Assembly: GCA_016700015.1 (NCBI GenBank)
Contig: CP064995.1
Location: forward strand, 330,001 to 362,000
Length of the DNA: 32,000 nucleotides
From: Candidatus Saccharimonadota bacterium
GTDB taxonomy: Bacteria; Patescibacteriota; Saccharimonadia; Saccharimonadales; Saccharimonadaceae
Direction of reading: 5' to 3'
Of this stretch, positions 4,196 through 32,000 are shown one piece after another (within the stretch, counting starts at the first letter, position 1; each line of letters starts with the position of its first letter). Both the position numbers and the translations under genes were made by a program. Below the pieces are notes generated by a model. It had not been told where the DNA came from and searched no databases. It was given only the letters and a program-made list of their open reading frames with translations.

Positions 4196-4206
4196 AGCAC
4201 TCTGCA

Positions 4207-4235: not shown

Positions 4236-4241
4236 AGTGCT

Positions 4242-4832
4242 ATGACGAAAAACTACCTTGTACCCAATGTGATTGTAAAAACTCGCGATGGTGAGCGCGG
4301 CTACGATATCTATTCACGGCTGCTCGAAGATCGCATCATTTTCCTCGGTGAAGACGTGAACGAGCATACCGCAAATGTTGTGGTCGCACAGCTACTGCAC
4401 CTTGCGAATGAAGATCCCACAAAAGATATCCACTTATACATCAATAGCCCAGGGGGTAGTGTGTATGATGGGCTGGCCATTTACGACACAATGAACCATA
4501 TCGCGCCAGACGTTGCCACTTACGGCATTGGCCTGCAAGCAAGTATGGGGGCGCTTCTTCTGAGTAGTGGCGCTAAAGGCAAGCGTCATTTGCTGCCTAA
4601 CGCGCGCGTCATGATTCACCAGCCGAGTAGCGGAACGCAAGGTAAGGTGACTGACCAAGAAATCAGTTTACGTGAAGCAATCGAACTGAAGGAGCGACTT
4701 GCGTCGATTATGGCAAAAAACACTGGTCAGAAGCTTGTTAAAGTCAAGGCTGATATGGAGCGCGATTTCTGGATGGGTGCTGAAGAAGCAAAAAAATACG
4801 GTGTTGTCGACACGGTACTTGCCGGTAAGTAA
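4242..4832 (+). CDS. clpP: ATP-dependent Clp protease proteolytic subunit
   Basis: [16 protein letters not shown] is present. Catalytic Ser lies in [11 protein letters not shown], His in MIHQPSSG, and Asp in MERDFWM. Confidence 0.96.
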
Positions 4833-14624: not shown

Positions 14625-15347
14625 ATGGGGGAAAAAGCACCGAAAAGTACAGATGGGTATGTATGCTCGGCGAAGAGCGCACGCCTACTTAGTCGTCTGG
14701 CGGACCATAGTGATTATGTTTATGTTGTAGGCAACCGTGTTGTCGTCGAGAAAATGATCGATACTCCCTACAACGAGCATGGAATTGTTGATACGCGCGA
14801 GCTGTTCCGCAGAGTGCTTGGGACGGTATCTACAGAATATTACTGGCAGGGGTCGTATGAGGGCCCACACCATATTATGTGGCCACGAGGGTGGTATAGA
14901 CAAAAAACCGATGGTAAACAAATTGCAATGCAGTTTCGCAATAGCCCAACACTTCGTTTGTATTTACCCAGAGATCTGCATGACTTTACACATAAAATTA
15001 CCGACCCACCTGTGCCACCGAGCAGAGATGTTATGGAACAATACATCCTCGAACAGTGCCAAGTGCAGAACCTTTACGATATTGTTCGTTTTCACGGGCT
15101 CCACGATCTTCATGGTATGGCGCATGACGACAAAGAAGCATATCGCCTAGAACGATTTCGTGAACGGCTGAGTGAAATGGAGGATGGTTACGTAGGAGTC
15201 ATGCCAAGTCGCGAGTTTCTGGCGGCTCTTCCGCTACACACGGCACGACAAGTGGTTCGATCCCTCGCGCGAGTACAGGGGCTGTCAAACGATAAAGCAT
15301 CGAGAAAAGCCTTTTTCAGCCCATCCCGCAGCCAACTTGTCGCGTAA
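14625..15347 (+). CDS. hypothetical protein with xHH / HNH (His-Me finger)-like motif (island gene A)
   Basis: PHHIMWPRGWY-x13-N-SPTLRLYLPRDLHDFTHK has the order HH...P...N...LP..H...H, as in colicin-DNase/AHH-GHH type HNH nucleases. There are no zinc Cys ligands. This is a motif-level call only. Confidence 0.55.
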   Translation: MGEKAPKSTDGYVCSAKSARLLSRLADHSDYVYVVGNRVVVEKMIDTPYNEHGIVDTRELFRRVLGTVSTEYYWQGSYEGPHHIMWPRGWYRQKTDGKQIAMQFRNSPTLRLYLPRDLHDFTHKITDPPVPPSRDVMEQYILEQCQVQNLYDIVRFHGLHDLHGMAHDDKEAYRLERFRERLSEMEDGYVGVMPSREFLAALPLHTARQVVRSLARVQGLSNDKASRKAFFSPSRSQLVA

Positions 15348-15355
15348 ATAAGGGG

Positions 15356-15385
15356 TTGCATATTTGTCAAATATGTATTTATATA
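15356..15385 (+). promoter_or_regulatory. possible promoter TTGCAT-17/18 nt-TTATAT/TATATA in the AT-rich A-B spacer
   Basis: TTGCAT at 15356-15361. The AT-rich -10 candidates at 15379-15385 lie 9-10 nt before ATG 15395. Confidence 0.3.
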
Positions 15386-15394
15386 AATAACAAT

Positions 15395-16393
15395 ATGATT
15401 GATAGACAGCCGTCTGATAAATTTAATACCACTCCTGATGAAGCTGAGTTGTTTGCTTCGCTCAATGAGCAGCTGAGCGACCCACTTGTCGAGAATATAT
15501 ACACACAGGCACGCAAGTTTTTGCAGGACGCGAACACAACCGCAACTACTAATGAAGAACTGGTCGCTATGATACGAAAACTTGACGGACAATGGCCATA
15601 TATGAATACGCCCATGTGGGTATCTGGCACGCTACATACGGCAGATGTTATATCTGGCCAGTTCCGCGCTCGACAGGTAGTTGACTTGCCGGTAATCTCA
15701 AATGGTTTTATGTTTGCACCGGCTACGACTGTTGTTGACGGTGAAGTTGTGCAAGCGGGTCATCGAATTGGTCATTCTGTGCACGTAAGAGATGATACCG
15801 GCGCAATGTCATTTCCGGGCTTCGTGAGTCTGGATGAACTTGATCATTTAGAACTTCCATTCCCATCGGTCGAGCGTAGGCTGCAGCGATTCGCCTATGA
15901 TTTTCCAGAGTATGCGGCCGACATTGATACAATTGCATTCCAGGCGCGTCGCGATGACCAAATTGTCAAAGATATCGAAGCTTTTTATTTTGATGCTGAC
16001 GTCGACGATCCGCTCGATCTTGAGGCTGTTCGTGATGCGATGGTGTACTTAACCTACAAGGCCGAACTTGAGCCCAATTTGCCGTACTATGTGTCATTTG
16101 TCGGTCCCTTCATTGGGGTTGGAAGTAACGGCGAGCCATATCCGAACTCTCTGCAATATCCCCAGCAAGGTGTGATCTCAATCCACCAAATATTGCTTCG
16201 TCCTGGCGATGTAACGATAAAACAGACCAACGGTCGTCAGCGGCTCGTACCGTTTATCGAAGCGACGCTCCATAGCGCAACGCGAGATGGGACAGACAAA
16301 CACCTTCTCATTCCCTGCGGGGGTATTCAATGGATTGAGTCTGCGCGCTATACTTCGCCGCATGTTGCGCTATTCCGAGGCAAGGAGCCGTAG
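15395..16393 (+). CDS. hypothetical acidic protein, paralog family member 1 (island gene B)
   Basis: I prefer ATG 15395 (MIDRQPSD) over the ORF-track TTG 15356, which overlaps promoter-like AT-rich sequence. Shares four ordered motif blocks with genes C and D (see findings). Confidence 0.75.
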   Translation: MIDRQPSDKFNTTPDEAELFASLNEQLSDPLVENIYTQARKFLQDANTTATTNEELVAMIRKLDGQWPYMNTPMWVSGTLHTADVISGQFRARQVVDLPVISNGFMFAPATTVVDGEVVQAGHRIGHSVHVRDDTGAMSFPGFVSLDELDHLELPFPSVERRLQRFAYDFPEYAADIDTIAFQARRDDQIVKDIEAFYFDADVDDPLDLEAVRDAMVYLTYKAELEPNLPYYVSFVGPFIGVGSNGEPYPNSLQYPQQGVISIHQILLRPGDVTIKQTNGRQRLVPFIEATLHSATRDGTDKHLLIPCGGIQWIESARYTSPHVALFRGKEP

Positions 16394-16395
16394 CG

Positions 16396-18474
16396 ATGGC
16401 TGAGACACACGACGGTTCAGCTGATTTTGAGCCAGTACATTATAGCGCGGTTGCCGAACATGACGAAGTACTCGAAACGCTGAGGCAGCGTATCCGCGAT
16501 GTTGAGCGTATGCTCCGCGAGGATGAGTTACATGTCAGCGATGACCAGTTTACTCAGCTTACATTGGCTATCGAAAATGATTGGCCCTATAGCGCTTCGC
16601 CGGTGAAGTTGTTTGCAAAACTCCGGGCCCTCAGTGAGGGTGCTCCACTGCCGAATGCTATGCGCGACGCCTATGGCGAGTACTATATTCCTGACGGTTC
16701 AGCGCTCATGACAGCATGGGGCATGGAGTTTGTGCCACTCGACGATGCATCGGCCATGAGGGCGGTGTACATGTTTAGTCAGGTAGGTTCAAGTGCCGAT
16801 AGTCCCCGTTACTATTGCTTTGACGAGGATATCTTTTCGCTACAATTTGCAGAAATTGCTCCCGCGTCTCTTACCTGGCAACTCGAACGGCTAATGCCCG
16901 AAGCTATCACTGCTATTAACGCAGCGATCGAGGAGGGGGCGAGCCTGACCGACAAGATACGTGGTATGGAACACCTTTCGTTGAAATTACAGCCTTCAGA
17001 GTTCGGTGACTATAATATTCTTGATAAACTCGCGATGTACATGAACGATCGTTTGGGGATCGACCACCGTATTATGCATAATCTTGAGCTTGAGGGGTCG
17101 TTTATAATCACTGGTCATGATGATGAGGGCGATGAAATACAGTTTCCCGCAACCCTGAAAGAACCGTTCCATACCCCTGGGTATATTGGCTCCGTGCAGT
17201 TGGCTCTCGCAAAACAGCTAGATGGCAATGAAGCATATGTACCCCTGTTAACATTGTATACCCACACCGAGACAGATGGTGATGATGACGATGATGTGCT
17301 GCTTGTGCCGGTGGCGACCCTGCGCTCGGCAGTTTGTGTTCGGCCTCGCCTGTCGCTTGCCCGCAGTCTAGCGGCTCGGGTTGGTCCTGAATCGCTCGCT
17401 ATTGAAGTGGCTGAGTACGATGACGCTCAAATTACCGACATAGCACCAGCAAGGGGCACGACTCACTACGAAACGATCCGCTACCATCAGACTTTGCTCT
17501 ACGGTGCCCGAGAATTTGCTAAACAAGCGGCAAGTGTATGCTACGAAACAGCCGAAGATGCCATAGAAGCTGCCGAGACAGTTCAGCAGGCAATCGTCGA
17601 TATGTTCGGTGACGACTGGGAGGCTATGGAACAACATACCTATGTGGCGGATGGTATAGGTATATCGATACCAAACTATCTTCACGATGGCTACGAGAAC
17701 ACTGAACCGGGGATGCCGGGTGGTGCAATAATTTTCCGTCCCAACCCCGAACAAAATATTCGCGAAAACAGCCTTATGGAGCGGTACCATGTATCTTTGG
17801 AAGAGGTTGTTGCCTATGTGGACCAAGTCGAAGAGGGGGAAGGCGATGTATCGTATAGGGTGGGGATTGAAATGGCAGTAAAAGTGCTTGACCGTCCGAT
17901 TATGTATCGGCAGGCTATCCCGGGTTCTCGCCGCATTGCTCGTGATGTCAGTGTGACGGAGTATATATATGTACCGCTTGACGATACGGCGAGTTTACTC
18001 AATATTGACCTACACGATATGGAGCAGTTTAGTGTTGCTATGAAACGGTTTAAGCGTAGGCTTGAGGATATGCCTGATCTTAAAAAATCATACAGGGCTC
18101 TTTTAAAGCTTCAGCAAGCACTATTCTATGAGCGAGACGATGGTGAGCTGACATCGCTTCACCGCGTGGAATTATTGCAGGTACTAGGAGAGCAGGGTGG
18201 CGGTGATGAGCATGCCGCAGGACTAATCGTTGATTCACTCAGCGATTTACTGGGCGCAAAACGCCGGGTTAGCGTTGTGGGCGAAGTCCGGTACGAGGGC
18301 AAAGAGACTCATGCTGGAGCATTTGATGCAATAACAGGCGTAATCACTGATATCGTTTCTTCTTATGCGGGTTCGCCAGTTGAAGAGCCAATGCTTGTGT
18401 TTACGCGGCTCGACCCCACTGGCCCGACTCGGCTCTATGTGCCAATCGCTAGTCTAAAAGAATTCCATTTCTAA
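16396..18474 (+). CDS. hypothetical acidic protein, paralog family member 2, with C-terminal extension (island gene C)
   Basis: SD AAGGAG at 16381-16386. The ATG lies 2 nt after the gene B stop, indicating translational coupling. The first ~325 aa are homologous to B and D. Confidence 0.8.
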   Translation: MAETHDGSADFEPVHYSAVAEHDEVLETLRQRIRDVERMLREDELHVSDDQFTQLTLAIENDWPYSASPVKLFAKLRALSEGAPLPNAMRDAYGEYYIPDGSALMTAWGMEFVPLDDASAMRAVYMFSQVGSSADSPRYYCFDEDIFSLQFAEIAPASLTWQLERLMPEAITAINAAIEEGASLTDKIRGMEHLSLKLQPSEFGDYNILDKLAMYMNDRLGIDHRIMHNLELEGSFIITGHDDEGDEIQFPATLKEPFHTPGYIGSVQLALAKQLDGNEAYVPLLTLYTHTETDGDDDDDVLLVPVATLRSAVCVRPRLSLARSLAARVGPESLAIEVAEYDDAQITDIAPARGTTHYETIRYHQTLLYGAREFAKQAASVCYETAEDAIEAAETVQQAIVDMFGDDWEAMEQHTYVADGIGISIPNYLHDGYENTEPGMPGGAIIFRPNPEQNIRENSLMERYHVSLEEVVAYVDQVEEGEGDVSYRVGIEMAVKVLDRPIMYRQAIPGSRRIARDVSVTEYIYVPLDDTASLLNIDLHDMEQFSVAMKRFKRRLEDMPDLKKSYRALLKLQQALFYERDDGELTSLHRVELLQVLGEQGGGDEHAAGLIVDSLSDLLGAKRRVSVVGEVRYEGKETHAGAFDAITGVITDIVSSYAGSPVEEPMLVFTRLDPTGPTRLYVPIASLKEFHF

Positions 18475-18485
18475 CCTGTCTATGC

Positions 18486-18515
18486 TTGCAAATAGCGCGA
18501 TATATTTGACACAAT
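18486..18515 (+). promoter_or_regulatory. possible promoter TTGCAA-18 nt-CACAAT, 7 nt before the ATG of island gene D
   Basis: Hexamers at 18486-18491 and 18510-18515. No SD before ATG 18523. Confidence 0.3.
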
Positions 18516-18522
18516 ATAAAGT

Positions 18523-20238
18523 ATGAGTGAGTATACATCTGCCAATCCCGACGACGCAAATCACGCGGCCGAAGAGCTGCTTGGTAAACTCGAATTATTT
18601 CGATTTGACCCTCTACTTCAGAAATTATTTGACGAAATTGAGATTGCTCAGGAGTCGCTCCCTGGCTACGACAAGCGCGAAGCCAAAGACCAGGTAAAAC
18701 GACTTAATGAGATGCTACGCAGTACGGGCTGGATTGGTACACCGGTGGAGGTGACCGGTAAGCTGCGCATTGCGCCGTGGTGCGATATCGACGAAGCCTA
18801 TAGCGATCATGTAGGGTCGCAGGCACGGAAAGGGCGAGACGAGCTAGGTGAATATTTTGAAGTAGTCGGCCTCAACATGGTGTGTGCGCTTATCGAAATT
18901 GATACCGAAACCTATGACGACGCCGCAACCGGGCGTTTTGTCATGACACTGACCACGCCCGACGCCATGGTCGATGCCGAAGATGAAGTCGACGATGTTG
19001 ACCTGGAAGAGCTGCTAAACTCTGCCGGCGAGTATTATTTCTACCGATCAGACATTGTCGAGCTATCGTTTCGCGAGCCGTCGACCGAGCAGACTGGTGT
19101 TATGCTGGCCAACCATTACCCAAAGATTTTGCAGCGCATCCACCACGACATACCAGAGGGTCAGCCAGCAGGCCACCACATGCTCGGCGCACTAAAGCGA
19201 TTTGAACTGGAATACGATGTGCGCTACACCAATGAGTTTTTGCAGCATATTGTCGATTATATTTATGCCCGTATTTGCCCCGACAGTGGACAGTATCGTT
19301 TCACGCTCGATGGTCTCATTGGCACCGCTGCTGTCGAGACTGGTTTAGAGTGGGAGCATATGCCGGAGCGAACAAAGCTTTCGGGAGTGATCGTAGGCTT
19401 TGATATGGTATGGGCTAACGACGCCTACCGCATGGCATTTGTTGTCGCCGAAGAGGCGGTTGCCTATGACGGCGGTTTCGAGCTTCGGCTCATCCCCGTA
19501 GATAGTGTGATGAAGCTTGAATGCTTAAGGCCTAGTCGCAAACGGTTTGGTGAGCTTGCGGTGCACGCCTTTACATCGCCAGAAGAGGTGATGGACTATT
19601 GGCGTGAAGCAGAGAGTAACCCCAGGCCCCTACCTGAAATCGTCGCACAACCAGAAGTACCTGGGTCTAATGATGAAATATTTGCGGCCCTCACCGACGG
19701 TTTAGTCAGTGAAATGCATGCAATTGCATATCACGATAGTGTTCTTGGCGCAGACCTTGTGTCTATCCAGCCCGACATTGATATGATTGTGACTGATTTT
19801 GCCGACCATGTGCGCATGTCTGAGGAATGGGACATCGATACGCCACTAAGTGCTAGTGATTTAGCTGCTATTAGTAAACTTATGGATAAAACACTTTCGC
19901 GCTTAGAGGCTTTGCGTGTAGGCGATAGGGTCGTAGCGGGTGGGCGGGTGCTTATTCTCGACGAGAGCGAGCCTGGTGTTAGTGATGTAGTGGTGGTTGA
20001 CGAAGGCACTTGCATTGTCGGTACGAGCGTCAATACGGTCATTTGCGACGTGCCAGAACTAGCATTTTATGATGAAGAATCCGGCACAACTCCGCGGAGT
20101 ACGATTGGTGTCGGGATACTGCTTGAAAATTGCCAAATTATAGATGGCGACGAAATACATGACGCGCCGTTTCATTCAAAGCAGGTGATTGTAGTGCTTT
20201 CACCGTCGCAAGGCACCGATTTCTACCAGGTTGTATAA
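18523..20238 (+). CDS. hypothetical acidic protein, paralog family member 3, with C-terminal extension (island gene D)
   Basis: The first ~345 aa carry the same ordered motif blocks as B and C. Acidic runs such as DAEDEVDDVDLEELL. Confidence 0.8.
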   Translation: MSEYTSANPDDANHAAEELLGKLELFRFDPLLQKLFDEIEIAQESLPGYDKREAKDQVKRLNEMLRSTGWIGTPVEVTGKLRIAPWCDIDEAYSDHVGSQARKGRDELGEYFEVVGLNMVCALIEIDTETYDDAATGRFVMTLTTPDAMVDAEDEVDDVDLEELLNSAGEYYFYRSDIVELSFREPSTEQTGVMLANHYPKILQRIHHDIPEGQPAGHHMLGALKRFELEYDVRYTNEFLQHIVDYIYARICPDSGQYRFTLDGLIGTAAVETGLEWEHMPERTKLSGVIVGFDMVWANDAYRMAFVVAEEAVAYDGGFELRLIPVDSVMKLECLRPSRKRFGELAVHAFTSPEEVMDYWREAESNPRPLPEIVAQPEVPGSNDEIFAALTDGLVSEMHAIAYHDSVLGADLVSIQPDIDMIVTDFADHVRMSEEWDIDTPLSASDLAAISKLMDKTLSRLEALRVGDRVVAGGRVLILDESEPGVSDVVVVDEGTCIVGTSVNTVICDVPELAFYDEESGTTPRSTIGVGILLENCQIIDGDEIHDAPFHSKQVIVVLSPSQGTDFYQVV

Positions 20239-22494: not shown

Positions 22495-22513
22495 AGTTTG
22501 TGCTTAAATCTAC

Positions 22514-22542
22514 TTGTTTTTCCTACCTGTCGCTCGTATGAT
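22514..22542 (+). promoter_or_regulatory. promoter TTGTTT-17 nt-TATGAT for the rhs gene
   Basis: Hexamers at 22514-22519 and 22537-22542. SD AGGGAGG at 22553-22559. Confidence 0.45.
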
Positions 22543-22563
22543 AAAAGCAACAAGGGAGGTTAT

Positions 22564-25500
22564 ATGCGGGGATATGTTGGTGTATTTGGTCGGGGCAAAA
22601 AGGTTATTCAGCGCAGTGCGCTGTTTTTTCTTACCTTTATGCTTGTGTTTGGGCTTATTGAACCGGGTATTTACCGCGCCTATGCCGAAAGTAACTCCCA
22701 GAAAGTGTTTCGCACCGACTACAAGCTAGACCCACTTTTGTCACAAAACCCAGCCACAAGCACGGTGCTCACCGAAAGCGGAGGTACTGAGCTACAACGC
22801 CCACTTGCCGAAAACGCCAGGCAATACCGCTATGAAGATACCACCAAGCGAACAAGTAACACATCGACGTCCGTCAACAATGATGGTACAAAAACACTCC
22901 TGTATAGCCAAAAGCAGCTTAACTACAAACAGGGCAACAAATGGGAGAAAATAGATAACCAGCTTTCCGCAACCGAGAACATAGCGCCAGCGGCTAATTT
23001 GTGGCAAATCCTCACCAACACCGCACCTAAAGCAGATGCTCCGAGCGAGTACACAGGCAAGGCCGGACAGGCAGCTGTGGCCATGAAACGCTCCAATGAA
23101 GGCATTAGTATAGCCATCGCCAACAAGACCATCACCATGACTCCAGTGGGAGCGGCTGGGGCAAAACCAGAAAAAATTGATGACACATCGGTTTTATACC
23201 GCGACGTTTGGCCCGGGATCGATCTGCAGTATGAGCTTCGCGGCGAAGCCATCAAAGAAGCAATCATCATTAAATCAAAATCCGCAAAGACAAACTTCGA
23301 GTTTATGTTTGGCGGTGGGAGTTTGAAGCAACATCCAAAATATGAGGGCAAGTTAACTGTTGAGGGTCTGCCCGACAGTTATGTTCTTGGTGACCTGTCG
23401 GTTCAGCTTAATGACCGTGGAGTCATCAGCGAGCAGCCTATGACGCAAAAAATAGTGGATGGCAAGCTTGTTGTTTCGCTCGACGCAAAGTGGTATGCGG
23501 CGTTGCCAGAGTCATCATTTCCAATACGTATAGACCCTACGCTCGGACCAGTCAATGACCAGACTGACTGGATGTTTAAGTCAGATGGATACTCGTGCAA
23601 CGGCTGGACATGCTGGATCAATACCGGCTCTATCTACGACAACGGTTGGAAAAGCTGGCGCACACTGTTCCAGTTTCCATACCCAGAGCTTGCAGGCAAG
23701 CGCATTGTTAATGCAAACATGCACGGTACGTTTCAGCCTAACGCCAATGGTGATACCAATGGTAGAAACATCTATATGGGCCATGCGACATGCATTGGAT
23801 TTAACTGTACGGGTATTTACATTGGTAATGCATGGGCGGGGACTGATTTTGACATCAACTTCACCAATGAACTGAATAACACGGTTGCATCGGGCGACAT
23901 GGGCGCGGTATGGAGTGTGTGGGGTGAAGAGGGCGCGTACAAGAGTTTCAAGCCATATCACTACATGACAGCAACCGTGGTGTATGACACGCCGACCCCA
24001 GTTGCTCCGGCTGTTTCACCTGCAAATGCACAAGTTGTTGTTGACACACAGCCAACACTTCGTGTTAACGCGGTTACAGATGCCGATGGCGATACAGTTC
24101 AATATTATTTCAGGGTAAGCACTAACCCCGACGCCGAAAGTGGAGCAGTCATCAATTCGGGATGGATTTCGTCCCCGCAATGGACAATACCCGATGGCGT
24201 ACTACAAGACGGTACCACATACTACTGGCATGTGTACACTCTTGGTGCGACTCAGACAAATCCAAACTGGACGCGCAACTTTAAAGTAGATCTACGTACG
24301 GGCAAAGACAGCACTCAGAGCTATGACACAGTCGGTCCGGTGGGTATCGACCTTGCGACTGGAAATGCCACCATGGGCGTGGGCACTCACGGTATGAAGG
24401 CACTGGGTGGTACAATCGGCCTAAACCTTAGCTACAACACGCCAAACCGGGCAAAAAGGGGCTTAAGTGCCGAGTACTGGAATTTACCTGCAAACTATAG
24501 TTTTGCGAGTGGTGCGCCCAGCTCGGCTGCCACCGTGACAAGGCGTGACCAAAACATCGACAACAACTGGAGTAGTGGATCACCCACGCCGGCGATAACC
24601 AACGATTGGTTCTACGCGCGCTGGACGGGGCAGTTTGTGGCGCCGGTCACGGGTACGTACAATTTTGGCGGGTCCAATGATGACACAATGAGGGTGTGGG
24701 TAAATGGTGCCGAGCAATACAACCAGAATTGCTATAGTGGCATATGCTATGACACGACGAAAAGTATAAGCCTGAGCGCAGGGCAGGCGGTGCCGATCAA
24801 AGTTGAATACCTAGATGCCGTTGGTGCGGCCAATGCTAAATTGTATGTCAAAGGCGCGGTGCCGGAGCAGGTAGTGTCGTCAGACTGGCTCTATAGCGAC
24901 GTGGTCAATTCTCCGCTCGGCTATGGTCTGACCGGTCGGTACTATACGGACAATGCCAATGCTCACGACTTCGATGCCGCAGCAGCTGATCCATTTCGTC
25001 TTATGATGCAGCGAGTTGATAGCAGTATGACTCTCAACTTTGGATTGAATGGGCCAGCACAAGGACTCCAGGCCGACAACTTTATGGCGCGCTGGACTGG
25101 CTACATAACCGTTCCCACTGCTGGTAGCTATACGCTCGGTGCTACTTCGGACGACGGTATCCGTATAAAAGTAAATACTGGCACCTGGCAAACGCCACTC
25201 GATAGTTTGGTTGACCATGCCGGTACCTACTGGGGTAGTGCGGTGTCACTGCCCGCCAACACGCCTATTCCGATCCAGGTCGACTGGTATGACCACGGTG
25301 GCGGTGCTCAGCTAAACCTACAGGTGCAGGGCAATGGCTATGCCGCACAGTCTGTGCCAGCTACCTGGCTCACGCCAGACGCCAATGTGCTCCCCGCACA
25401 GTGGAAGCTTGGTATTGATGCCGACGGCAATGTTGCCTACGAGCGGCTACGAGTAACTACGAACTCAGTGATTCTCGAAGATTCAACCGGCAGTACACAT

Positions 25501-28500
25501 GAGTACGGCTACAAAAACGGCGGCTACACGCCCCCGGTCAACGAAGACGGCACGCTGAGCAAAAACGCCGACAACACCTATACCTTGGCCGACACCGACG
25601 GCCGAACGTATGTATTCAACGCCGACGGTACGCTGCAATCGGTATCGTCACCAACTGACGATCGTCAGCCTGCTGCGCTCAAATACACTTACGGCGGATC
25701 GCCATCACGACTGCTCAAAATCGAAGACGGTACCACCAGCGCCCGCTATGGGACGGTCATATACAAAGGTGTCAACGAAACCAACAATATATGCGACAAA
25801 AACGGCACCAACAATCCTTCGGCGCTGTTTGGTCTCATCAGTAGCTTTGCCGATGCACCAAGTGGTAAACTGTGTGCCTTCACTACCAGCGATGGCGACA
25901 CGACAAACTTCTACTACGACAGTAGCGGTAACTTGGCACGCATTGTACAGCCAGGCGGGCAGGTGACCGACTATGCCTACGACCAGTATGGGCGTATTAC
26001 CGACGTGCGCGATAGTGTCGCGGCCGATGCAATCGCGGCTGGTATCCGTGCTGTCGATAATAGTGTATTGACCACACTAACCTACGACACTCTTGGCCGT
26101 ATTAGTTCGGTCAAAGCACCAGCTGCTACGGCAGCTGCTCAGCGGCTCGAGCATGCACTTGGCTATAAATTATCAAGCCAGCTACCTGTGAGTCGTTTCT
26201 ACAACCTCACTACTGGCGATCACCGCGCCAGTATAGCGTCCAACCTGCCTGGCTACATACTCGAATTTACCCATGGCTACATATTCAAAGATAGCGGTAC
26301 CAACCTCACCCCACTATATAGTTGCGTTGTTGGCACAAGCAATGAAATGGTGTCGCTCGACAGCAACTGTGAAGGAACGGGGATTTTGGGCAGGCTCGGC
26401 TACGCCTACGATCGTACCAAGCCGCAACCAGCAGGGACTGTGCCGCTGTATCGGTGCCGTGTCGGTGGTGAACACTTTACCTCTACTCAGAGCAACTGCG
26501 ATGGCTATATATTCGAGTTCTTGCTAGGCTACCTGAGTATAGGATTTGACTACCAAGGTATTGCCGAACTACACATTGCCGGTGCCAGCGAACCGAGCGG
26601 CTATAGCAAGCGTATTCAGTATGACACCCTGCTACGCACCACTGCCGAAACCGACCTAACCGGCAAGTCTGTCAAAACCGAGTGGGATAGTGTGAAAGAC
26701 CTTCAGCTCAGCAAGACCGACGCTACTGGAATGAAGAGCACAACAATCTACGACGTGCTCGACCGCGCAACTGATAGCTATGGCCCTGCGCCCAGCGCGT
26801 GGTTTGGAGCCGACAGGAAGCCTGTTGCCGCGCAGGTGAACAATGTGCCCCATACCAGCACGGGCTATGACGAGTCGGATGGTATGAAGGGCCCGGCGGT
26901 GTCGTGGTACGACGTAAAAGGCAAAACCCTGACCGGTGCGCCGCGTTACAATACGACGGGCTTCAGTAGCGACCTTTCACGGCTTTGGTACGACAACAAC
27001 AACTTTGCATTACCAATTACTCCAGGAGTAGGGATGGATGGTGTAGGGCTACGGGCCACGGCTAAACTCATGACCCCACCCGCTACCGGTCAATACAAGC
27101 TATTAGTTTGCTACACAGATGCCATACGCGTGTTTGTCGATAACCAACTTCAGTTTAACCAGTGGGACAATCGCAATTCCACGGTTGTCTGTGGCTACTC
27201 GGGCTTATTCACCCTCACTGCCGGGACTGCGCCAAACCTCGTCATCGAAGCGGCCAAATATGGCTCTCGACTGGCATTTTCGATCAATCTGTATCGTGCA
27301 GATAACACCCTTGTCAGCACAGCGAGTGGCGTGAACGATCGCTGGTCGCCCCTCGGCATTACCGCCGGCTACAACCTTACCACTAGCACCACTGCCTACG
27401 ACAGCCAGCTCGGCAATGTCACTAGTACCACCCAATATGCCAACCCTGCCTATGGAACAGTCGGCAGCACTACGCTCGACCCAACTGGGCTAAACTATGT
27501 GTCTCAGGCTACGTACGAAGCCCCAGGGGCGGGCTATCTGCGCCAGACGAGCAAAACACTGCCCGGTGGTGCCACGACCACCTATCAGCACTATGGTGGC
27601 ACCGAAACAGCCGACAACCCCTGCACACCCGAAACCGACCCGGCACCACAAGCGGGTATGCCAAAAGGAAAGGTAGACCCCACCGGCCGCACTACCACCA
27701 CTGTGTACAACCATTCGGGCGACGTAGTAGCTACACGCTACAATAGCGACCCGTGGACGTGTACCAGCTACGACACCCGCGGTCGCGTAACCCAAACAGT
27801 AGTGCCGTACATGAACAGCAAAAACGGCCGTACTATAGCTAACAACTATGCCGTCGGTGGCAATCCGCTTGTCACTAGCACTACCGACGACAGTGGTACT
27901 ATATCGGTCGAAAACGACTTGCTCGGCCGCACCGTCAAATACACCGATGCAAAAAACAACGTCACCACGAACACGTACGACGATTTCGGCAAACTCACAA
28001 GCCGTACTAGCCCCATTGGCACCGAAAGCTACGAATACGACCAGTACGACCGGCTCGTGAAACAAAAACTCGACACCGTGACCATGGCGACCGTCACGTA
28101 CGACGAATTTAGCCGCATTCAGTCCGTGCAGTACCCAGCAGGCATGAGCCTAAGTAGTATAACGCGCGACACGCTCGGTAGAGAAAACAGCAATACTTAT
28201 ACGCTGGCAAACGGCCAAACACTCACCGACCAAATAACTAGGTATACGAGTGGCGACATTCAAAACGGCACCGAACTGGGGGTTGGCAAATCCTACATCT
28301 ACGACAAAGCCGGTCGCTTAACAAGTGCCACTATCGGCAGCAATACCTATAGCTACGGTTTTGGCGCCCAGCACGCTAGCTGTAGCCTGCCAGCTGGGTA
28401 TGATGCAGGTAAAGACGGCAACCGCACCAGCATGACAGTCAACGGCCAAACCACTACGTATTGCTACAACAACGCCGATCAGCTGGTAAGCGGCAGCGAC

Positions 28501-29592
28501 CCATCGCTCACAAATGTCCAGTACGACACCCACGGCAATACTACTAGCCTTGGTGACGCTACTCATAAAACAACCTTTGGCTACGACTCCACTGATCGTA
28601 ACACAAGTATCGGAGGCAATGGCACCACTAGCTTCATCCGTGACGTCCAGAGCCGTATCGTCACACGCGAGCATAAAGACGGAGCGGGCACCACCACTAG
28701 CCTCGTCAACTATGGCTTCACTGGCAGTGGCGACACTCCCGACTTCCTCACCGACAATACTGGTACAGTGGTGCAAAAGTATCTGACACTCCCGGGTGAC
28801 GTGTTAGTGACCATCAAACCCCAATCCACCAGTGCTGGTGCCACTACCTATAGCGTGCCTAATATCCATGGCGATGTGATGGCGACAGTCAACGCCGACG
28901 GAGCCCTTACCAGCACCTTCCTGACTGGCCCTTTCGGCGAAGTACTCCCCACCCAACCACAGACTACTACCACACGTGGCGGTGCGCTCACCACCCCAGA
29001 ACCACTGCAACAACTCGCCCCATCGTCTACTCCAACCAACACTGCATCCGGCACCACCTACAGCTACGTCGGTCAACACGAGAAGATGACGGATATAGAA
29101 ACCAGTGCTATAGTGGGTGGTATCACCCAAATGGGTGCGCGTGTTTACATACCAGTGCTAGGACGGTTTCTGAGTATTGACCCGGTAGATGGTGGTGTAG
29201 ATAACAATTACAACTATCCAAATGATCCGGTGAATAACTTCGATTTGAGCGGAGAGGCGCAGCACGGTAAGCAGCAGGCGAAACCTAAAGTCTTATCGTA
29301 TAGGGAACAGGAACTTTTAAATGGTCCAAAAACTAAAATTAACTCAAAAGAGTATCAAAAAGCTCTCGACAAAGTTAAATACAATGAAAAGATATCGGGC
29401 GTAAGGAAATCACGATGGTCAAACTCGAAACCATCAACTCCGACACTCAAACCAAGTGGAAAAACATCGACGCCTAAAGTCAATATATCTGCCAAGCCAA
29501 CTACACGCCTTCCGATAATTTGGATGATCATAATGCCTAAGACGATCTATAATGGGTTGCTGTACGGGCCGGGTGGCGGAGCTCCCGTATAG
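22564..29592 (+). CDS. WapA/Rhs-family YD-repeat polymorphic toxin precursor (2342 aa) with N-terminal signal/anchor, three PA14 modules and a variable C-terminal tip
   Basis: Start taken at ATG 22564 ([32 protein letters not shown] is a hydrophobic signal/anchor). There are many YD repeats, e.g. [71 protein letters not shown]. The Rhs core end is [41 protein letters not shown]. Confidence 0.93.
24460..24890 (+). other. PA14-like domain 1 within the Rhs protein
   Basis: [10 protein letters not shown]...[36 protein letters not shown]...[20 protein letters not shown]. Confidence 0.8.
24925..25380 (+). other. PA14-like domain 2 within the Rhs protein
   Basis: [10 protein letters not shown]...[34 protein letters not shown]...[20 protein letters not shown]. 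Confidence 0.8.
26194..26538 (+). repeat. three tandem ~35-aa protein repeats of the RFYN..GDH..T type embedded in the YD-repeat region
   Basis: The three units are [64 protein letters not shown] and [31 protein letters not shown]. Confidence 0.6.
26890..27300 (+). other. PA14-like domain 3, inserted inside the YD-repeat region
   Basis: [16 protein letters not shown]...[41 protein letters not shown]...[27 protein letters not shown]. Confidence 0.6.
29257..29589 (+). other. variable C-terminal tip (putative toxin) of the main Rhs protein, family unrecognised
   Basis: About 111 aa after the core-end motif DLSGE. It is Lys-rich ([45 protein letters not shown]...) and ends in a hydrophobic segment, [27 protein letters not shown]. 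Confidence 0.5.
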
Positions 29593-29605
29593 AAAGGAAT
29601 CAAAT

Positions 29606-29917
29606 ATGAAATTAAAGCAATGGTATGGAGTTCGATCGCTGGTATTCGATCCAGATAATGAGTTTTACGAGGAGCGCACGGTTATTGTTTTAGCAAATTC
29701 AAAAGATGGGGCATTAACGAAAGTAGCCAAGCATACGAACGAATACTGTAAATCGGTTGGACTTGAAGACTGTTTATACAGCGAGGTATTCAAATTAGTT
29801 GACAAAGATATTGGAGATTTAACAGAGGTGTATTCATGTATGCGGTATAGCGATTTTACTCCTAAGCAATATGTGAACAAGTTTTTAGCTACCGGGGATG
29901 AGGTTAATTTAGAGTAA
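29606..29917 (+). CDS. small cytosolic protein, candidate cognate immunity protein (from memory resembles the DUF4288-type pattern; unverified)
   Basis: ATG 29606 with SD GAAAGGA, 13 nt after the rhs stop. MKLKQWYGVRSLVFDPDNEFYEERTVIVLANSKDGALTKVAKHTNEY...GDLTEVYS. No TM segment. Confidence 0.6.
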   Translation: MKLKQWYGVRSLVFDPDNEFYEERTVIVLANSKDGALTKVAKHTNEYCKSVGLEDCLYSEVFKLVDKDIGDLTEVYSCMRYSDFTPKQYVNKFLATGDEVNLE

Positions 29918-30028: not shown

Positions 30029-30469
30029 CCCGATTTCTTCGCTGATCCATGAGGCACAGTGACGCAGAAATACCTCAGCCTTGCCGGTGGTATACGCGTC
30101 ACCATCAAACCACAAAGCACTAGTGCTGGTGCTACCACCTACAGCCTCAGTAACCTGCATGGTGATACCATGGCAACAGTGAATGCCGATGGTACCCCAA
30201 CCATCATCACCCCCACCGGCCCCTTCGGTGAACAACTAGCAAATCATACCGCACCCACCAACGCCACACCTGGCACCAGCAACGACTACCTCGGTACTCA
30301 TGCTAAAGCCACCGAAACAGACTACCTGACTCGTCCTATCCAAATGGGAGCCAGAGTCTATATACCAGAACTAGGCAGGTTTATGCAGATGGACCCGGTG
30401 GAGGGAGGAACGCTGAATGATTATGTGTATGCACAGGATCCGGTGAATCAAACCGATACAACTGGTGAG
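30029..30469 (+). repeat. diverged duplicate of the rhs core 3' end (counterpart 28738-29256)
   Basis: Codon-level alignment: [54 protein letters not shown] versus the main-gene [55 protein letters not shown]. Both end in GARVYIP.LGRF...DP..GG..N.Y.Y..DPVN..D..GE. Confidence 0.9.
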
Positions 30470-30931
30470 TTCTTGGCAAATCTAATTCGGATTGCAGTCG
30501 TCGCACTGTTTAAGCTTGTACCAAAGCAAGCAGTAAAGCAAACAGCGAAGAAAGCAACGAAGGCTGTCGTAAAACAAGAAGTAAAAACGATTGCGAAGCA
30601 GGTTACAAGGCAAGAAATAAAGAATATTGCCAGCACAACACCAAAGCAAATGTCGTACAACGCGCAGAAAACAGTCGACTTCCTAAAGAATAATGACTTT
30701 AAGTTTTCAGCGCAATTCACTAAAGGAGGCGGCCAGTGGTTAAACGATGGTCGAGCAGGCTCGCAGCTACTACCAAAAGAGTATCTTGGTAAGCCAATAA
30801 ATTATACAGAGTGGGATGTCCAGCCAATGTTGCAAAATGGCTTGCGCGGCTCGGAGCGTATAATTAGAGGCAGCGATGGGTCAATATGGCACACCGCCGA
30901 CCACTATAAGACGATAATAAGAATTGAGTGA
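30059..30931 (+). CDS. orphan Rhs C-terminal fragment carrying a barnase/RNase Sa-family ribonuclease toxin domain
   Basis: The ORF begins at a GTG just after an in-frame TGA (30050-30052). The last ~75 aa, GGGQWLNDGRAGSQLLPKEYLGKPINYTEWDVQPMLQNGLRGSERIIRGSDGSIWHTADHYKTIIRIE, align to barnase ...GKSGRTWREADINYTSGFRNSDRILYSSDWLIYKTTDHYQTFTKIR. The catalytic Glu, both Arg and the His are conserved. Confidence 0.85.
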   Translation: MTQKYLSLAGGIRVTIKPQSTSAGATTYSLSNLHGDTMATVNADGTPTIITPTGPFGEQLANHTAPTNATPGTSNDYLGTHAKATETDYLTRPIQMGARVYIPELGRFMQMDPVEGGTLNDYVYAQDPVNQTDTTGEFLANLIRIAVVALFKLVPKQAVKQTAKKATKAVVKQEVKTIAKQVTRQEIKNIASTTPKQMSYNAQKTVDFLKNNDFKFSAQFTKGGGQWLNDGRAGSQLLPKEYLGKPINYTEWDVQPMLQNGLRGSERIIRGSDGSIWHTADHYKTIIRIE

Positions 30932-30941
30932 GAGTATAAAA

Positions 30942-31487
30942 ATGAATATTGAGAATATGAAAATGCTTATTACTAAATCAGGAGCGGAACTTCAAACCGG
31001 CCTCACAGACGATGAAATAAATGAGATAGAGCGCGTTTTCGGTGCTCCCATGCCCGCCGACTTTAAAGAAATGCTTCACCACTTCCTACCGATTGGTAAT
31101 ATGTTCTACGACTGGCAAAAGCCACAGAACGTGCACGATGATTTTTATCGAGATTTAGAAAATGTGATACGTTTCGATATTTCTAATAATAACTTTTGGT
31201 GCCCACTATTTGGCGACAAACCGCAAAGTATAGATGAATCGGTTGCTAAGGCTATGGCAGCGATACACAATGCGCCACCGCTTTTTCCAATATACTCACA
31301 CCGATGCGCTGCACGTAGCGCATCTCGAGATAAGTCAGTTGTAATATCACTATACCAATTCACTGACTCGGCAGTATACGGAGTAGGTATAGAGGATTAT
31401 TTGATGCGCGAATTCGGCAATCAAGACAACGTATCAATGATTGAAAACGTACATGTACCGTTTTGGTCGGAGTGCTTAGAGCTTTAA
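30942..31487 (+). CDS. SUKH / SMI1-KNR4 family immunity protein for the orphan RNase
   Basis: LTDDEINEIERVFGAPMPADFKEMLHHFLPIG is the family-typical N-terminal motif, and the gene lies immediately downstream of the toxin. An alternative TTG start at 30924 overlaps the toxin stop. Confidence 0.75.
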   Translation: MNIENMKMLITKSGAELQTGLTDDEINEIERVFGAPMPADFKEMLHHFLPIGNMFYDWQKPQNVHDDFYRDLENVIRFDISNNNFWCPLFGDKPQSIDESVAKAMAAIHNAPPLFPIYSHRCAARSASRDKSVVISLYQFTDSAVYGVGIEDYLMREFGNQDNVSMIENVHVPFWSECLEL

Positions 31488-31637: not shown

Positions 31638-32000
31638 ATGCCCAATAAAAATACAGTTAAGATTTTTGTCGCAAATACCTATTATCACGTATATAGCCGT
31701 GGTTGGAATCTGAATAAAATATTTCGAGATGAGAGTGATTACAAATACTTCGAATTACTATTGATGCGCGCGTTCGCCCCCGAGGCTGTCGCAGATGAAC
31801 GAGGGCGGCTATATCGCAACTTTTATAACGACGCGCGCCTTAATGCCTACTGTCTCATGGGAAACCATTTCCACCTCCTTGTACATATCTACGACGAGTC
31901 AGGACTGAGCAGGGCAATGAAAAGCATCCTCACTTCGTATTCCATGTATTTCAACAAAAAGTACAAACAACGCGGCAAGCCTGTTCGAGTCTACGTATAA
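31638..32000 (+). CDS. IS200/IS605-type Y1 (HUH) transposase-like / RayT-like protein, apparently truncated or frameshifted
   Basis: YYHVYSRGWNLNKIFRDESDYKYFELLL and the HUH motif in AYCLMGNHFHLLV. Stop TAA at 31998-32000 comes before the expected catalytic-Tyr helix. Confidence 0.75.
   Translation: MPNKNTVKIFVANTYYHVYSRGWNLNKIFRDESDYKYFELLLMRAFAPEAVADERGRLYRNFYNDARLNAYCLMGNHFHLLVHIYDESGLSRAMKSILTSYSMYFNKKYKQRGKPVRVYV

What the first reader, a model, noticed from the sequence alone, without database searches (positions are those of the whole stretch)
29257..29917. Unrecognised Lys-rich C-terminal toxin tip with hydrophobic tail, plus a small cytosolic immunity candidate, behind a sharp GC drop
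After the core-end motif ([11 protein letters not shown], ending 29256), the last ~111 aa match no toxin fold I recognise. A Lys-rich, probably helical stretch and a Ser/Thr/Pro/Lys linker are followed by [27 protein letters not shown]. Spot GC counts fall from 36/60 within the core (28981-29040) to 18/60 in the tip (29281-29340), as expected for a horizontally exchanged CT/immunity cassette. The next gene (29606-29917, 103 aa, SD-preceded, no TM) is positioned as the immunity gene. Its WY...YEER.V.V.A.S...A...A......Y...G..EVYS pattern reminds me of DUF4288, but that is unverified recollection. A short toxin with a membrane-like tail paired with a soluble immunity protein is an unusual combination. 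It may represent a new toxin/immunity family, or a degenerate tip.
Basis: partly seen in the sequence, partly recalled or inferred. Interest (0 to 1): 0.65.

Follow-up and report, generated by a model that had tools for sequence, protein, structure and literature searches.

The report
New Saccharibacterial Rhs toxin tip and partner
The last 111 residues of a giant Rhs surface toxin from a Saccharibacterium (TM7), plus the small gene behind it, belong to a rare, undescribed toxin-tip/partner family that has no enzyme domain, so this is a real but fairly ordinary new cassette in a well-known kind of bacterial weapon.

Summary

The tip is not degenerate. A search of 1.84 billion proteins found five relatives. 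All sit directly after an Rhs core end, on full-length Rhs proteins or orphan modules, in Saccharibacteria-like contigs.

The family has three parts:
- a conserved 58-aa polybasic head (AQ[RH]G…KYNEK..G.R.SR.S)
- a low-complexity linker
- a hydrophobic C-terminal tail

Two versions exist. Type A has a transmembrane-grade tail (GIWWSAK…CGP…VCAVVL). It is always followed (5/5 loci) by an acidic soluble 140-160-aa protein. Type B (this window and one other lineage) has RWSNSK plus a short Pro-flanked Ile-rich tail. It is followed (2/2) by the acidic 103-114-aa protein. That protein hits Pfam DUF4288 just below threshold in 3/3 homologues.

So the downstream gene co-varies with the tip, as a cognate immunity gene should. 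No other delivery scaffold carries this tip.

Mechanism is inferred, not shown: a non-enzymatic basic peptide effector, most likely membrane-directed, sequestered by its acidic partner. In this member the tail is too weak to span a membrane.

I file it as a new member of a known kind, of moderate interest.

The parts
22564..29256 (+). Rhs/YD delivery scaffold. It has an N-terminal Sec-type signal peptide, three PA14 domains, RHS repeats and the Rhs-associated core, which ends ...[11 protein letters not shown].
   Evidence: The ORF is listed from TTG 22498. The probable start is ATG 22564 ([13 protein letters not shown]...), by alignment with P0029. PA14 1.9e-40 and RHS_repeat 1.5e-13. TIGR03696 39.9 bits, above the cutoff of 32.5. 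It is 63 % identical to P0029 and 44 % to P0007, two full-length Rhs proteins that carry type-A tips.
29257..29430 (+). Conserved polybasic 'head' of the C-terminal tip (58 aa): [58 protein letters not shown].
   Evidence: 50-57 % identical to the same position in P0003-P0007 (phmmer E 8e-9 to 3e-4 against 1.84 billion proteins; tblastn). Columns that are invariant across the six tips include K39, K41, Y42, N43, K45, G48, R50, S52, R53 and S55. Two helices are predicted. The helices are hydrophilic, with a low hydrophobic moment of 0.32.
29431..29508 (+). Ser/Thr/Pro/Lys low-complexity linker (residues 59-84).
   Evidence: Not conserved in length or sequence among family members. The model gives pLDDT ~50-55 here.
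29509..29592 (+). Type-B C-terminal tail [27 protein letters not shown], plus the stop codon.
   Evidence: It is the only hydrophobic cluster in the tip. The 19-residue Kyte-Doolittle mean is 1.18, against 1.82-1.95 for type-A tails. The relative P0005/P0030 has an analogous cluster, KIIPFIILIPKEI, but the similarity in residue order is not significant (1604 of 5000 shuffles reach the score). The other two forward reading frames are closed by several stops, so the tail is not a frameshifted type-A tail.
29593..29598 (+). Shine-Dalgarno-like AAAGGA, 7 nt before the partner gene's ATG.
   Evidence: Read directly from the sequence.
29606..29917 (+). Cognate partner gene (immunity candidate). The product is 103 aa, acidic, soluble and a distant relative of DUF4288.
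   Evidence: PF14119 scores 22.9 bits against a gathering score of 27. The homologues P0002 (59 % identical) and L014:3304-3648 (44-46 %) score 24.2 and 23.6 bits. The L014 homologue lies directly behind the other type-B tip. pI 4.9. The model has a beta-beta-alpha-beta-beta-alpha layout at pLDDT 65.5.
30059..30931 (+). Orphan Rhs module: the last ~137 aa of a core, followed by a different tip (hydrophobic helix, Lys-rich helix, barnase-type RNase).
   Evidence: TIGR03696 50.1 bits. PF00545 26.1 bits, above its gathering score of 24. 73 % nucleotide identity between 30098-30232 and 28807-28941. This shows the locus behaves as a polymorphic-toxin array.
30924..31487 (+). Immunity candidate for the orphan RNase tip (SUKH-5-like, below threshold).
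   Evidence: PF14567 23.6 bits against a gathering score of 27. Acidic, pI 4.8.

Best explanation
The region 29257-29917 is a working effector/partner cassette of a Sec-exported Rhs polymorphic toxin in a Saccharimonas-like Saccharibacterium.

**The effector.** It is a small (111 aa), very basic (+16, pI 10.3), mostly disordered peptide with no room for an enzyme fold. It belongs to a rare, undescribed tip family with three parts: a conserved 58-aa polybasic head, a variable low-complexity linker and a C-terminal hydrophobic element.

**How it probably works (inferred).**
1. The tip is cut off after the core-end motif, like other Rhs tips, and stored inside the Rhs shell.
2. On contact it is released onto another cell.
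3. It acts by binding rather than by catalysis.
4. Most likely the hydrophobic tail engages the cytoplasmic membrane while the head makes a specific contact, which disturbs membrane integrity or a membrane-associated target.
5. The acidic 103-aa protein encoded 13 nt downstream binds and sequesters the basic tip in the cytoplasm. This protects the producer and its kin.

**Shown:** family membership, position on Rhs scaffolds, retention in orphan modules, and co-variation of partner with tip type.

**Inferred:** cleavage, delivery, toxicity, membrane action and direct binding.

My confidence that this is a cognate effector/partner pair is about 0.65. My confidence that the action is membrane-directed is about 0.35.
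For: 1. **Real family at a fixed position.** Five relatives in 1.84 billion representatives, plus P0008. Each starts right after D[LP].G of an Rhs core.
2. **Cassette behaviour.** The tip occurs on full-length Rhs proteins (window; P0007/L012; P0029). It also occurs on orphan modules (L009, L011/L014, L013, L007), including a frameshifted copy in L010.
3. **Co-variation.**
   - Type-A tips are followed in 5/5 loci by one acidic ~140-160-aa family (alignment A3).
   - Type-B tips are followed in 2/2 independent loci by the DUF4288-like protein.
   - The two partner families are unrelated (hhalign probability 0.2 %).
4. **Charge complementarity.** Tips have pI 10.2-10.8. Partners have pI 4.4-5.5 and are hydrophilic.
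5. **Compositional break**.
6. **Stable allele.** The sequence is identical in two other metagenome samples.
7. **Evidence for a membrane role.**
   - Type-A tails have a 19-residue uncharged stretch with a Kyte-Doolittle mean of 1.82-1.95, plus a second hydrophobic segment at the extreme C-terminus. They are 73-79 % identical among P0003, P0004 and P0006.
   - Other tips on this Rhs lineage also carry hydrophobic or Gly-zipper segments.
8. **Orphan partner.** A partner homologue without any toxin (P0002, L001) fits an orphan immunity gene.
Against: - No toxicity or binding data exist.
- In this member the tail falls below the membrane-span threshold (1.18). It is also not significantly similar in order to the other type-B tail.
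- The head helices are hydrophilic with a low hydrophobic moment (0.32-0.49), unlike lytic amphipathic peptides.
- The invariant residues in the head are polar (Y, N, G, R, S). That points to specific recognition rather than general membrane binding.
- Membrane-acting polymorphic toxins usually have membrane-embedded immunity proteins. Here both partner families are soluble.
- The co-variation for type B rests on only two lineages.
- The tip was not found on any non-Rhs scaffold.
Confidence: 0.55

Rival explanations
1. The tip is a cytoplasm-acting, stoichiometric toxin. The conserved polybasic head is the payload and binds a specific intracellular target, such as nucleic acid, the ribosome or an essential protein. 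The hydrophobic tail is only the membrane-crossing aid that every tip of this Rhs lineage carries. The acidic partner neutralises the head directly.
For: - Both partner families are soluble and acidic. This is the pattern seen for cytoplasm-acting toxins such as the neighbouring RNase/SUKH pair.
- The invariant residues of the head are polar, and the head is hydrophilic with a low hydrophobic moment.
- Sibling tips on the same scaffold family combine a hydrophobic segment with a soluble domain.
- The type-B tails are poorly conserved.
Against: - Type-A and type-B heads are homologous (50-57 %), yet their partners are unrelated. The partner tracks the linker/tail version instead.
- Type-A tails are at least as conserved as the heads (73-79 % against 67-72 %). 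That is more than a generic translocation aid would need.
- 58 residues with two short helices and no predicted tertiary fold is very little for a specific inhibitor.
Confidence: 0.25
2. This type-B tip is a decaying or inactive derivative of the type-A toxin. The head survives, but the functional transmembrane tail has been replaced by non-functional sequence. The downstream gene is linked by history rather than by function.
For: - The tail is below transmembrane grade.
- The two type-B tails are not significantly alike.
- Only two type-B lineages are known.
- Rhs arrays do accumulate debris, for example the frameshifted copy in L010 and the chimeric P0004 N-terminus.
Against: - The ORF is intact on a full-length 2364-aa Rhs, and the other frames are closed.
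- The allele is identical in three samples.
- The same tip-plus-partner combination persists in a second lineage at only ~44-52 % identity, with spacing preserved at 13 and 10 nt. Keeping both genes intact over that much divergence argues for selection on the pair.
Confidence: 0.1
3. The C-terminal region is not a toxin. It is a membrane anchor or sorting signal that holds the Rhs protein on the producer's surface, and the downstream protein is an export chaperone for the hydrophobic tail.
For: - Type-A tails resemble a C-terminal anchor: a transmembrane-grade segment at the extreme C-terminus.
- A CGP motif in those tails recalls CGP-CTERM sorting domains. This is recalled from my own knowledge, not tested here.
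- Sortase genes lie near related loci.
- A soluble partner for a hydrophobic tail would fit a holdase role.
Against: - No sorting-signal model matches any member of the family (NCBIfam; Pfam).
- There is no LPXTG motif.
- The positive charge lies before the hydrophobic segment, not after it, which is the wrong way round for a stop-transfer anchor.
- The region lies beyond the Rhs autoproteolysis motif.
- It is kept in orphan modules that have no delivery scaffold, each with its own partner. This is typical of toxin/immunity cassettes and pointless for an anchor.
- This member's tail cannot span a membrane.
Confidence: 0.07

Closest known systems
Rhs/YD-repeat polymorphic toxin systems, especially the Sec-exported, wall-associated WapA/WapI of Bacillus subtilis (own knowledge; general framework in Zhang et al. 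2012, PMC3482391)
   Same: - N-terminal signal peptide, surface-binding domains, an RHS shell and a core-end motif.
- A variable C-terminal tip and a tightly linked small partner gene.
- Downstream orphan tip/immunity modules.
- A compositional break at the tip.
   Different: The tip has no recognisable enzymatic domain. It is a 111-aa polybasic, largely disordered peptide with a hydrophobic end. WapA tips are tRNases.
The giant PA14 + RHS/YD secreted protein with a neighbouring immunity gene, noted in the Saccharibacterium 'T. rhizospherense' (Starr et al. 2018, PMC6031116)
   Same: The same phylum and the same kind of scaffold: more than 2300 aa, PA14 plus RHS/YD repeats, with an adjacent immunity gene.
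   Different: That paper only mentions the gene. The tip family described here was not characterised there, and I could not compare the sequences.
CdiA-CT ionophore toxins of contact-dependent inhibition systems (Halvorsen et al. 2024, PMC11630599)
   Same: - A two-part tip: an N-terminal module that can be shared or swapped, and a C-terminal membrane-active module.
- Polymorphic cognate immunity proteins that follow the C-terminal module.
- Non-enzymatic action on the membrane.
   Different: - Those ionophore domains are predicted five-helix membrane-spanning bundles. Their CdiI immunity proteins are, to my knowledge, integral membrane proteins.
- Here the hydrophobic part is 27-40 residues, the partners are soluble and acidic, the scaffold is Rhs, and there is no sequence similarity.
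Class IIa (pediocin-like) bacteriocins and their immunity proteins such as PedB (PMC5077127; own knowledge)
   Same: A small cationic peptide with a hydrophobic C-terminal half, paired with a small soluble intracellular immunity protein of about 100 aa. This shows that pairing a membrane-active peptide with a soluble immunity protein is not unprecedented.
   Different: - No homology and no YGNGV motif.
- Bacteriocins are exported as free peptides, not carried in an Rhs shell.
- PedB acts through the man-PTS receptor complex.
Pfam DUF4288 (PF14119), an uncharacterised ~84-position bacterial domain
   Same: The N-terminal beta-hairpin-plus-helix region (WY.VR....D....YEERTV.V.A) of all three partner homologues matches the profile at E 4e-5 to 1e-4.
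   Different: - All scores (22.9-24.2 bits) fall below the gathering score of 27 and cover only about half the profile.
- No paper in the searched library mentions DUF4288, so the family adds no functional information.

Membership tests
Rhs/YD polymorphic toxin system | RHS/YD repeats and the Rhs-associated core domain ending in a DPxG-type motif | tested here: met
   RHS_repeat 1.5e-13. TIGR03696 39.9 bits, above the cutoff of 32.5. The core ends [12 protein letters not shown] at 29256.
Rhs/YD polymorphic toxin system | The C-terminal tip varies between otherwise related scaffolds | tested here: met
   Against P0029, identity is 70-88 % in the C-terminal shell, 57 % in the head and nil in the tail. 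L005, L010 and the window's own orphan module carry entirely different tips.
Rhs/YD polymorphic toxin system | A small, tightly linked downstream gene that co-varies with the tip (cognate immunity) | tested here: met
   Type B is followed by the DUF4288-like protein in 2/2 loci. Type A is followed by the A3 family in 5/5 loci. The two partner families are unrelated.
Rhs/YD polymorphic toxin system | Orphan tip/immunity modules downstream that share core-end homology | tested here: met
   The window carries one at 30059-31487. The same tip family also sits in orphan modules in L009, L010, L011/L014 and L013.
Rhs/YD polymorphic toxin system | The tip is toxic and is neutralised by the cognate protein; the tip is autoproteolytically released | not testable with these tools
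   This needs expression, competition and mass-spectrometry experiments.
Polymorphic toxin domain in the strict sense (the same tip on several delivery scaffolds) | The tip is fused to other delivery domains (LXG, CdiA, PAAR and so on) | tested here: not met
   Every hit is on this one Rhs lineage or on its orphan modules. Nothing was found in plasmids, phages, viral contigs, the metagenome scan or the species-representative genomes.
Pfam DUF4288 (PF14119) | Whole-protein score at or above the curated gathering score (27 bits) | tested here: not met
   22.9 bits (window), 24.2 (P0002) and 23.6 (L014), with E 4e-5 to 1e-4 and partial profile coverage. This is a consistent distant resemblance, not membership.
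Membrane-spanning / pore-forming toxin tips (e.g. CDI ionophores, colicin-type pore formers) | At least one hydrophobic segment long enough to span a bilayer (~19 residues, Kyte-Doolittle mean >= ~1.6) | tested here: not met
   The window tail scores 1.18, and its longest stretch free of charged or strongly polar residues is 12 residues. The feature is met in type-A relatives (1.82-1.95, 19 uncharged residues). No Pfam pore-former family matches any member.
Amphipathic cationic lytic peptides | A helix with a high hydrophobic moment and a substantial apolar face | tested here: not met
   The best 18-residue stretch of the head has muH 0.32 and mean hydrophobicity -0.36. Magainin, melittin and LL-37 give 0.51-0.78 on the same scale.
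C-terminal sorting/anchor signals (LPXTG, CGP-CTERM and the like) | A match to a curated sorting-domain model, with motif, transmembrane segment and basic tail in that order | tested here: not met
   No NCBIfam or Pfam hit for any of the six tips. There is no LPXTG motif, and the basic region precedes the hydrophobic segment.

The most novel reading that the evidence does not exclude
This is the founding example of a Saccharibacteria-specific class of Rhs-encapsulated, non-enzymatic peptide toxins. One conserved polybasic head is combined with interchangeable hydrophobic tails. Each version is neutralised by an unrelated acidic cytosolic protein. The swap junction lies inside the tip, after the head, rather than at the core/tip boundary. 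If true, the DUF4288 fold would get its first functional assignment, as an immunity protein. These epibiotic bacteria would also be shown to use peptide-type membrane effectors against competitors or their actinobacterial hosts.
Probability: 0.3. Interest if true: 0.6.

Novelty: new member of a known kind. Interest (0 to 1): 0.42.

Why it matters
Saccharibacteria (TM7) are tiny bacteria that live attached to other bacteria. How they fight competitors or handle their hosts is largely unknown. This locus shows that they run a classical Rhs polymorphic-toxin array with orphan cassettes. It also defines a previously unannotated tip family and two partner families.

The tip has no enzyme domain. 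If it is toxic, it works by binding or membrane insertion, which is rarer among Rhs tips than nucleases or NADases.

The finding also gives the first context-based functional lead for relatives of DUF4288.

The practical weight is modest. Uncharacterised polymorphic-toxin tips are common, the family is rare (a handful of lineages among billions of proteins), and nothing here overturns current understanding.

Tried and rejected
1. **Frameshift or degenerate tail.** The other two forward frames of 29200-29650 are closed by several stops, and none resembles the type-A tail. Rejected as a simple frameshift.
2. **Word-indexed homologue search with the tip alone.** It found nothing. Only the exhaustive HMMER search found the family. 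A profile search returned just three proteins.
3. **Metagenome scans** with the tip alignment and with the partner alignment: no confirmed locus. JGI contigs that do carry the family (L010-L012) were not recovered, so that collection is evidently incomplete for this lineage.
4. **Other collections:** viral contigs, plasmids and phages. Nothing found.
5. **Species-representative genomes.** Only core-end homologues with different tips were found (L005 Patescibacteria, L006 Acidobacteriaceae).
6. **PDB sequence searches** with the tip, the partner and profiles A2 and A3: nothing below E 0.3.
7. **Structure.** The partner model is of low confidence (pLDDT 65.5), and Foldseek against the PDB gave no hit better than E 0.6. 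I did not run Foldseek on the tip model, because it is two helices plus disorder and any match would be meaningless.
8. **Relationship between the two partner families.** Rejected (hhalign probability 0.2 %).
9. **Homology of the two type-B tails.** Not supported by a shuffle test. I therefore define type B by the RWSNSK junction, a Pro-flanked Ile-rich cluster and the shared partner, not by tail homology.
10. **Head as an amphipathic lytic helix.** Rejected.
11. **Sorting-signal reading.** No model matches.
12. **Literature.** No paper mentions DUF4288 or PF14119. No paper describes this tip.
Full report
**1. The observation**

The window carries a 2364-aa ORF (22498-29592, +; probable start ATG 22564). 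It has an N-terminal Sec-type signal peptide, three PA14 domains, RHS repeats and the Rhs-associated core domain TIGR03696 (39.9 bits, cutoff 32.5).

The remaining 111 residues (29257-29589) are the quoted Lys-rich sequence, S/T/P/K linker and [27 protein letters not shown] tail.

Over 29257-29917 the GC is 0.401. The 572 same-size windows upstream give 0.506 +/- 0.027, and none is as low (z = -3.9). GC3 drops from 0.57 to 0.43 and 0.375, so the break is not just a lysine-codon effect.

The next ORF starts at ATG 29606, 13 nt after the stop, with AAAGGA 7 nt upstream. It encodes a hydrophilic, acidic 103-aa protein. The locus is 100 % identical in contigs from two other metagenome samples (L003, L004). 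It is therefore a stable allele and not an assembly artefact.

**2. Host and setting**

The window's EF-G falls in a >=90 % cluster whose named members include 'Candidatus Saccharimonas aalborgensis', 'Candidatus Saccharimonas sp.', 'Candidatus Saccharibacteria bacterium' and 'Patescibacteria group bacterium'. A Patescibacteria MAG carries a homologous 2238-aa Rhs with the same architecture and a different tip (L005). Housekeeping genes lie upstream, including hisS, tig, clpP and fusA, plus two large ORFs (1120 and 1287 aa) that I did not scan.

Downstream lie three further elements:
- an orphan Rhs module (30059-30931): core end, hydrophobic helix, Lys-rich helix and a barnase-type RNase (PF00545 above threshold)
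- a SUKH-5-like immunity candidate (30924-31487)
- an IS200-type transposase that is cut by the window end

The locus is therefore a classical Rhs polymorphic-toxin array in a Saccharibacterium. A giant PA14 + RHS/YD protein with a neighbouring immunity gene has been mentioned before in this phylum (PMC6031116).

**3. The tip is a family, not debris**

Pfam, NCBIfam and PDB sequence searches find nothing for the tip. The word-indexed search of 5.8 billion proteins also found nothing. An exhaustive phmmer search of 1.84 billion cluster representatives found five proteins (E 8e-9 to 3e-4, about 50 % identity over tip residues 1-60/86).

Four of the five carry an Rhs core immediately before the match, which begins right after the core-end D[LP].G. 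P0007 is a full-length 2365-aa Rhs, and P0003, P0005 and P0006 are orphan modules. The fifth, P0004, keeps only a remnant of a core end. A cluster mate, P0029, is a full-length 2336-aa Rhs. P0008 is a frameshifted orphan remnant.

Alignment A2 shows a 58-aa head with many invariant, mostly polar or basic columns (A1, Q2, G4, K11, L13, E17, K31, A36, K39, K41, Y42, N43, K45, G48, R50, S52, R53, S55, K58). A low-complexity linker and a hydrophobic C-terminal tail follow.

A single-sequence AlphaFold model gives two short helices in the head (15-22 and 31-47; pLDDT 82-90) and disorder elsewhere.

**4. Two versions**

*Type A* (P0003/P0029, P0004, P0006, P0007, P0008). After ...SR[EQ]SKDKNN and a Gly-rich linker, the tail reads KAAAVVGG..VVG.GIWWSAK.ASP.CGP...VCAVVL. 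It contains a 19-residue uncharged stretch with a Kyte-Doolittle mean of 1.82-1.95, of transmembrane grade, and a second hydrophobic segment at the very C-terminus. The tail is 73-79 % identical among P0003, P0004 and P0006, at least as conserved as the head.

*Type B* (this window, and P0005/P0030). The head ends ...SRWSNSK. The tail has only a short Pro-flanked Ile-rich cluster ([11 protein letters not shown] here, KIIPFIILIPK there). Its best 19-residue mean is 1.18-1.24, below the usual ~1.6 for a membrane span.

Beyond composition and position, the two type-B tails are not significantly similar: 1604 of 5000 shuffles reach the alignment score.

The window Rhs and P0029 compare as follows:
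- 63 % identical overall
- 70-88 % in the C-terminal shell
- 57 % in the head
- unalignable in the tail

The A/B swap junction therefore lies inside the tip, after the head, rather than at the core/tip boundary.

**5. The downstream gene co-varies with the tip**

All five type-A loci are followed within about 15-40 nt by one family of acidic, soluble 140-160-aa proteins that end ...D[VI]I[ML]HD..D.D....P..R.YY. These are L007, L009, L010, L012 and L013 (alignment A3). This family has no Pfam or PDB match.

The only other type-B lineage at first seemed uninformative, because its contig L011 stops at the stop codon. A cluster mate on longer contigs (P0030; L014 from NCBI GCA_964427315.1, and L015) resolved this. 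There the type-B orphan module is followed 10 nt later by a 114-aa protein that is 44-46 % identical to the window's 103-aa protein.

The tips of these two lineages are themselves about 44-52 % identical. Tip and partner have therefore diverged together with their spacing preserved.

The two partner families are unrelated (hhalign probability 0.2 %). A third homologue of the 103-aa protein (P0002, 59 %) sits without any toxin among small accessory genes (L001). That would be expected of an orphan immunity gene.

The tips are very basic (pI 10.2-10.8, net +14 to +16). All partners are acidic (pI 4.4-5.5) and hydrophilic.

**6. DUF4288**

The window protein, P0002 and the L014 protein each hit PF14119 at 22.9, 24.2 and 23.6 bits (E 1e-4 to 4e-5). 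All three fall below the gathering score of 27 and cover only the N-terminal hairpin-plus-helix part of the profile. This is a consistent distant resemblance, not membership.

The structure model (beta-beta-alpha-beta-beta-alpha, pLDDT 65.5) found no PDB neighbour better than E 0.6. No paper in the library mentions DUF4288.

**7. How it most likely works**

*Shown:*
- The tip is a conserved family placed exactly where Rhs toxins sit.
- It is kept in orphan modules.
- It is paired with a version-specific, tightly linked, charge-complementary partner.

On that basis I put the probability of a functional effector/immunity-type pair at about 0.65.

*Inferred:* With 58 conserved residues and no predicted tertiary fold, the tip cannot plausibly be an enzyme. 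It should act by binding or insertion.

My preferred reading (about 0.35) is membrane-directed action. The hydrophobic C-terminal element engages the bilayer while the head makes a specific contact, and the acidic partner sequesters the peptide in the cytoplasm. Three points support this:
- The sister type has a transmembrane-grade, sequence-constrained tail.
- Other tips on this Rhs lineage also carry hydrophobic or Gly-zipper segments.
- The partner version follows the tail version.

Four points count against it:
- This member's tail is sub-threshold.
- The head is not an amphipathic lytic helix (muH 0.32, against 0.51-0.78 for reference peptides).
- The invariant head residues are polar.
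- Both partners are soluble.

The main rival (about 0.25) is a cytoplasm-acting stoichiometric inhibitor, with the head as payload and the tail as a crossing aid. The lesser rivals are an inactive derivative (about 0.10) and an anchor plus chaperone (about 0.07).

**8. Comparison with known systems**

The system is a member of the Rhs/YD polymorphic toxin kind. Every defining feature I could test is met. Toxicity and processing cannot be tested with these tools.

The tip fails the stricter test of appearing on other delivery scaffolds.

In function it most resembles two known systems, with no homology to either:
- The two-part CdiA-CT ionophores, which combine an N-terminal entry module with a membrane-active C-terminal module and have polymorphic cognate immunity proteins (PMC11630599).
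- The class IIa bacteriocin/PedB system, which pairs a cationic peptide with a soluble intracellular immunity protein (PMC5077127).

**9. Verdict**

It is a new, rare tip/partner family within a well-known kind of system, so I file it as a new member of a known kind. Interest is moderate (0.42).

It is notable for three things: the lack of any enzyme domain, the head/tail modularity with unrelated partners, and its restriction to Saccharibacteria. But uncharacterised polymorphic-toxin tips are common, and the mechanism remains inferred.

Noticed in passing
window 30059-31487: An orphan Rhs module. It has the last ~137 aa of a core (73 % nucleotide identity to 28807-28941), then a tip made of a hydrophobic helix, a Lys-rich helix and a barnase-type RNase (PF00545, 26.1 bits, above its gathering score of 24). 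An overlapping SUKH-5-like gene follows (23.6 bits, below its gathering score of 27). It is a ready substrate for tip switching by recombination with the main gene.
   Followed up: partly
window 31638-32000: An IS200-like Y1 transposase (PF01797, E 5e-7) begins just after the toxin array and is cut by the window end. It may mark the edge of the variable region.
   Followed up: no
L001:470-725, 1235-1310, 1800-1865: In the contig that carries the toxin-less partner homologue P0002, several of the small genes are followed by a repeated ~70-nt unit. The unit ends in a hairpin (AGAYCTCTYCGRAGGKCTA) plus a T-run, which looks like a reused terminator or cassette boundary.
   Followed up: no
L005:6300-6780; L010:54-1229; L014:348-938 and 3776-4516; window 30464-30620: Every other tip seen on this Saccharibacterial Rhs lineage begins with a hydrophobic or Gly-zipper segment right after the core end, followed by a soluble domain. 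The family studied here has the reverse order (polybasic part first, hydrophobic part last) and no further domain. Some of those other tips (L010, L014:3776) are followed by membrane-protein immunity candidates.
   Followed up: partly
window 29410-29430 vs P0029 (alignment): The junction between type-A and type-B tips lies inside the tip, after the conserved head (around ...SR|W/E...), not at the core/tip boundary. The exchanged unit seems to be linker plus tail plus partner gene.
   Followed up: partly
window 14625-20238: Four consecutive ORFs (240, 345, 692 and 571 aa) just upstream of fusA have no Pfam match at E <= 1e-5. This is an unannotated block close to the toxin locus.
   Followed up: no
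L007:563-1132 (P0004): A chimeric ORF. An acidic 55-aa N-terminus, unrelated to Rhs, is fused at ...NNYDLDG to a complete type-A tip. It is probably a deletion product that joins the end of a preceding gene to an orphan module.
   Followed up: no
L012:1078-1674; L014:7904-8902: Sortase genes lie near the related Rhs loci. This fits surface display of these proteins on a Gram-positive-type envelope. No sortase gene was seen in the parts of the window I scanned.
   Followed up: no
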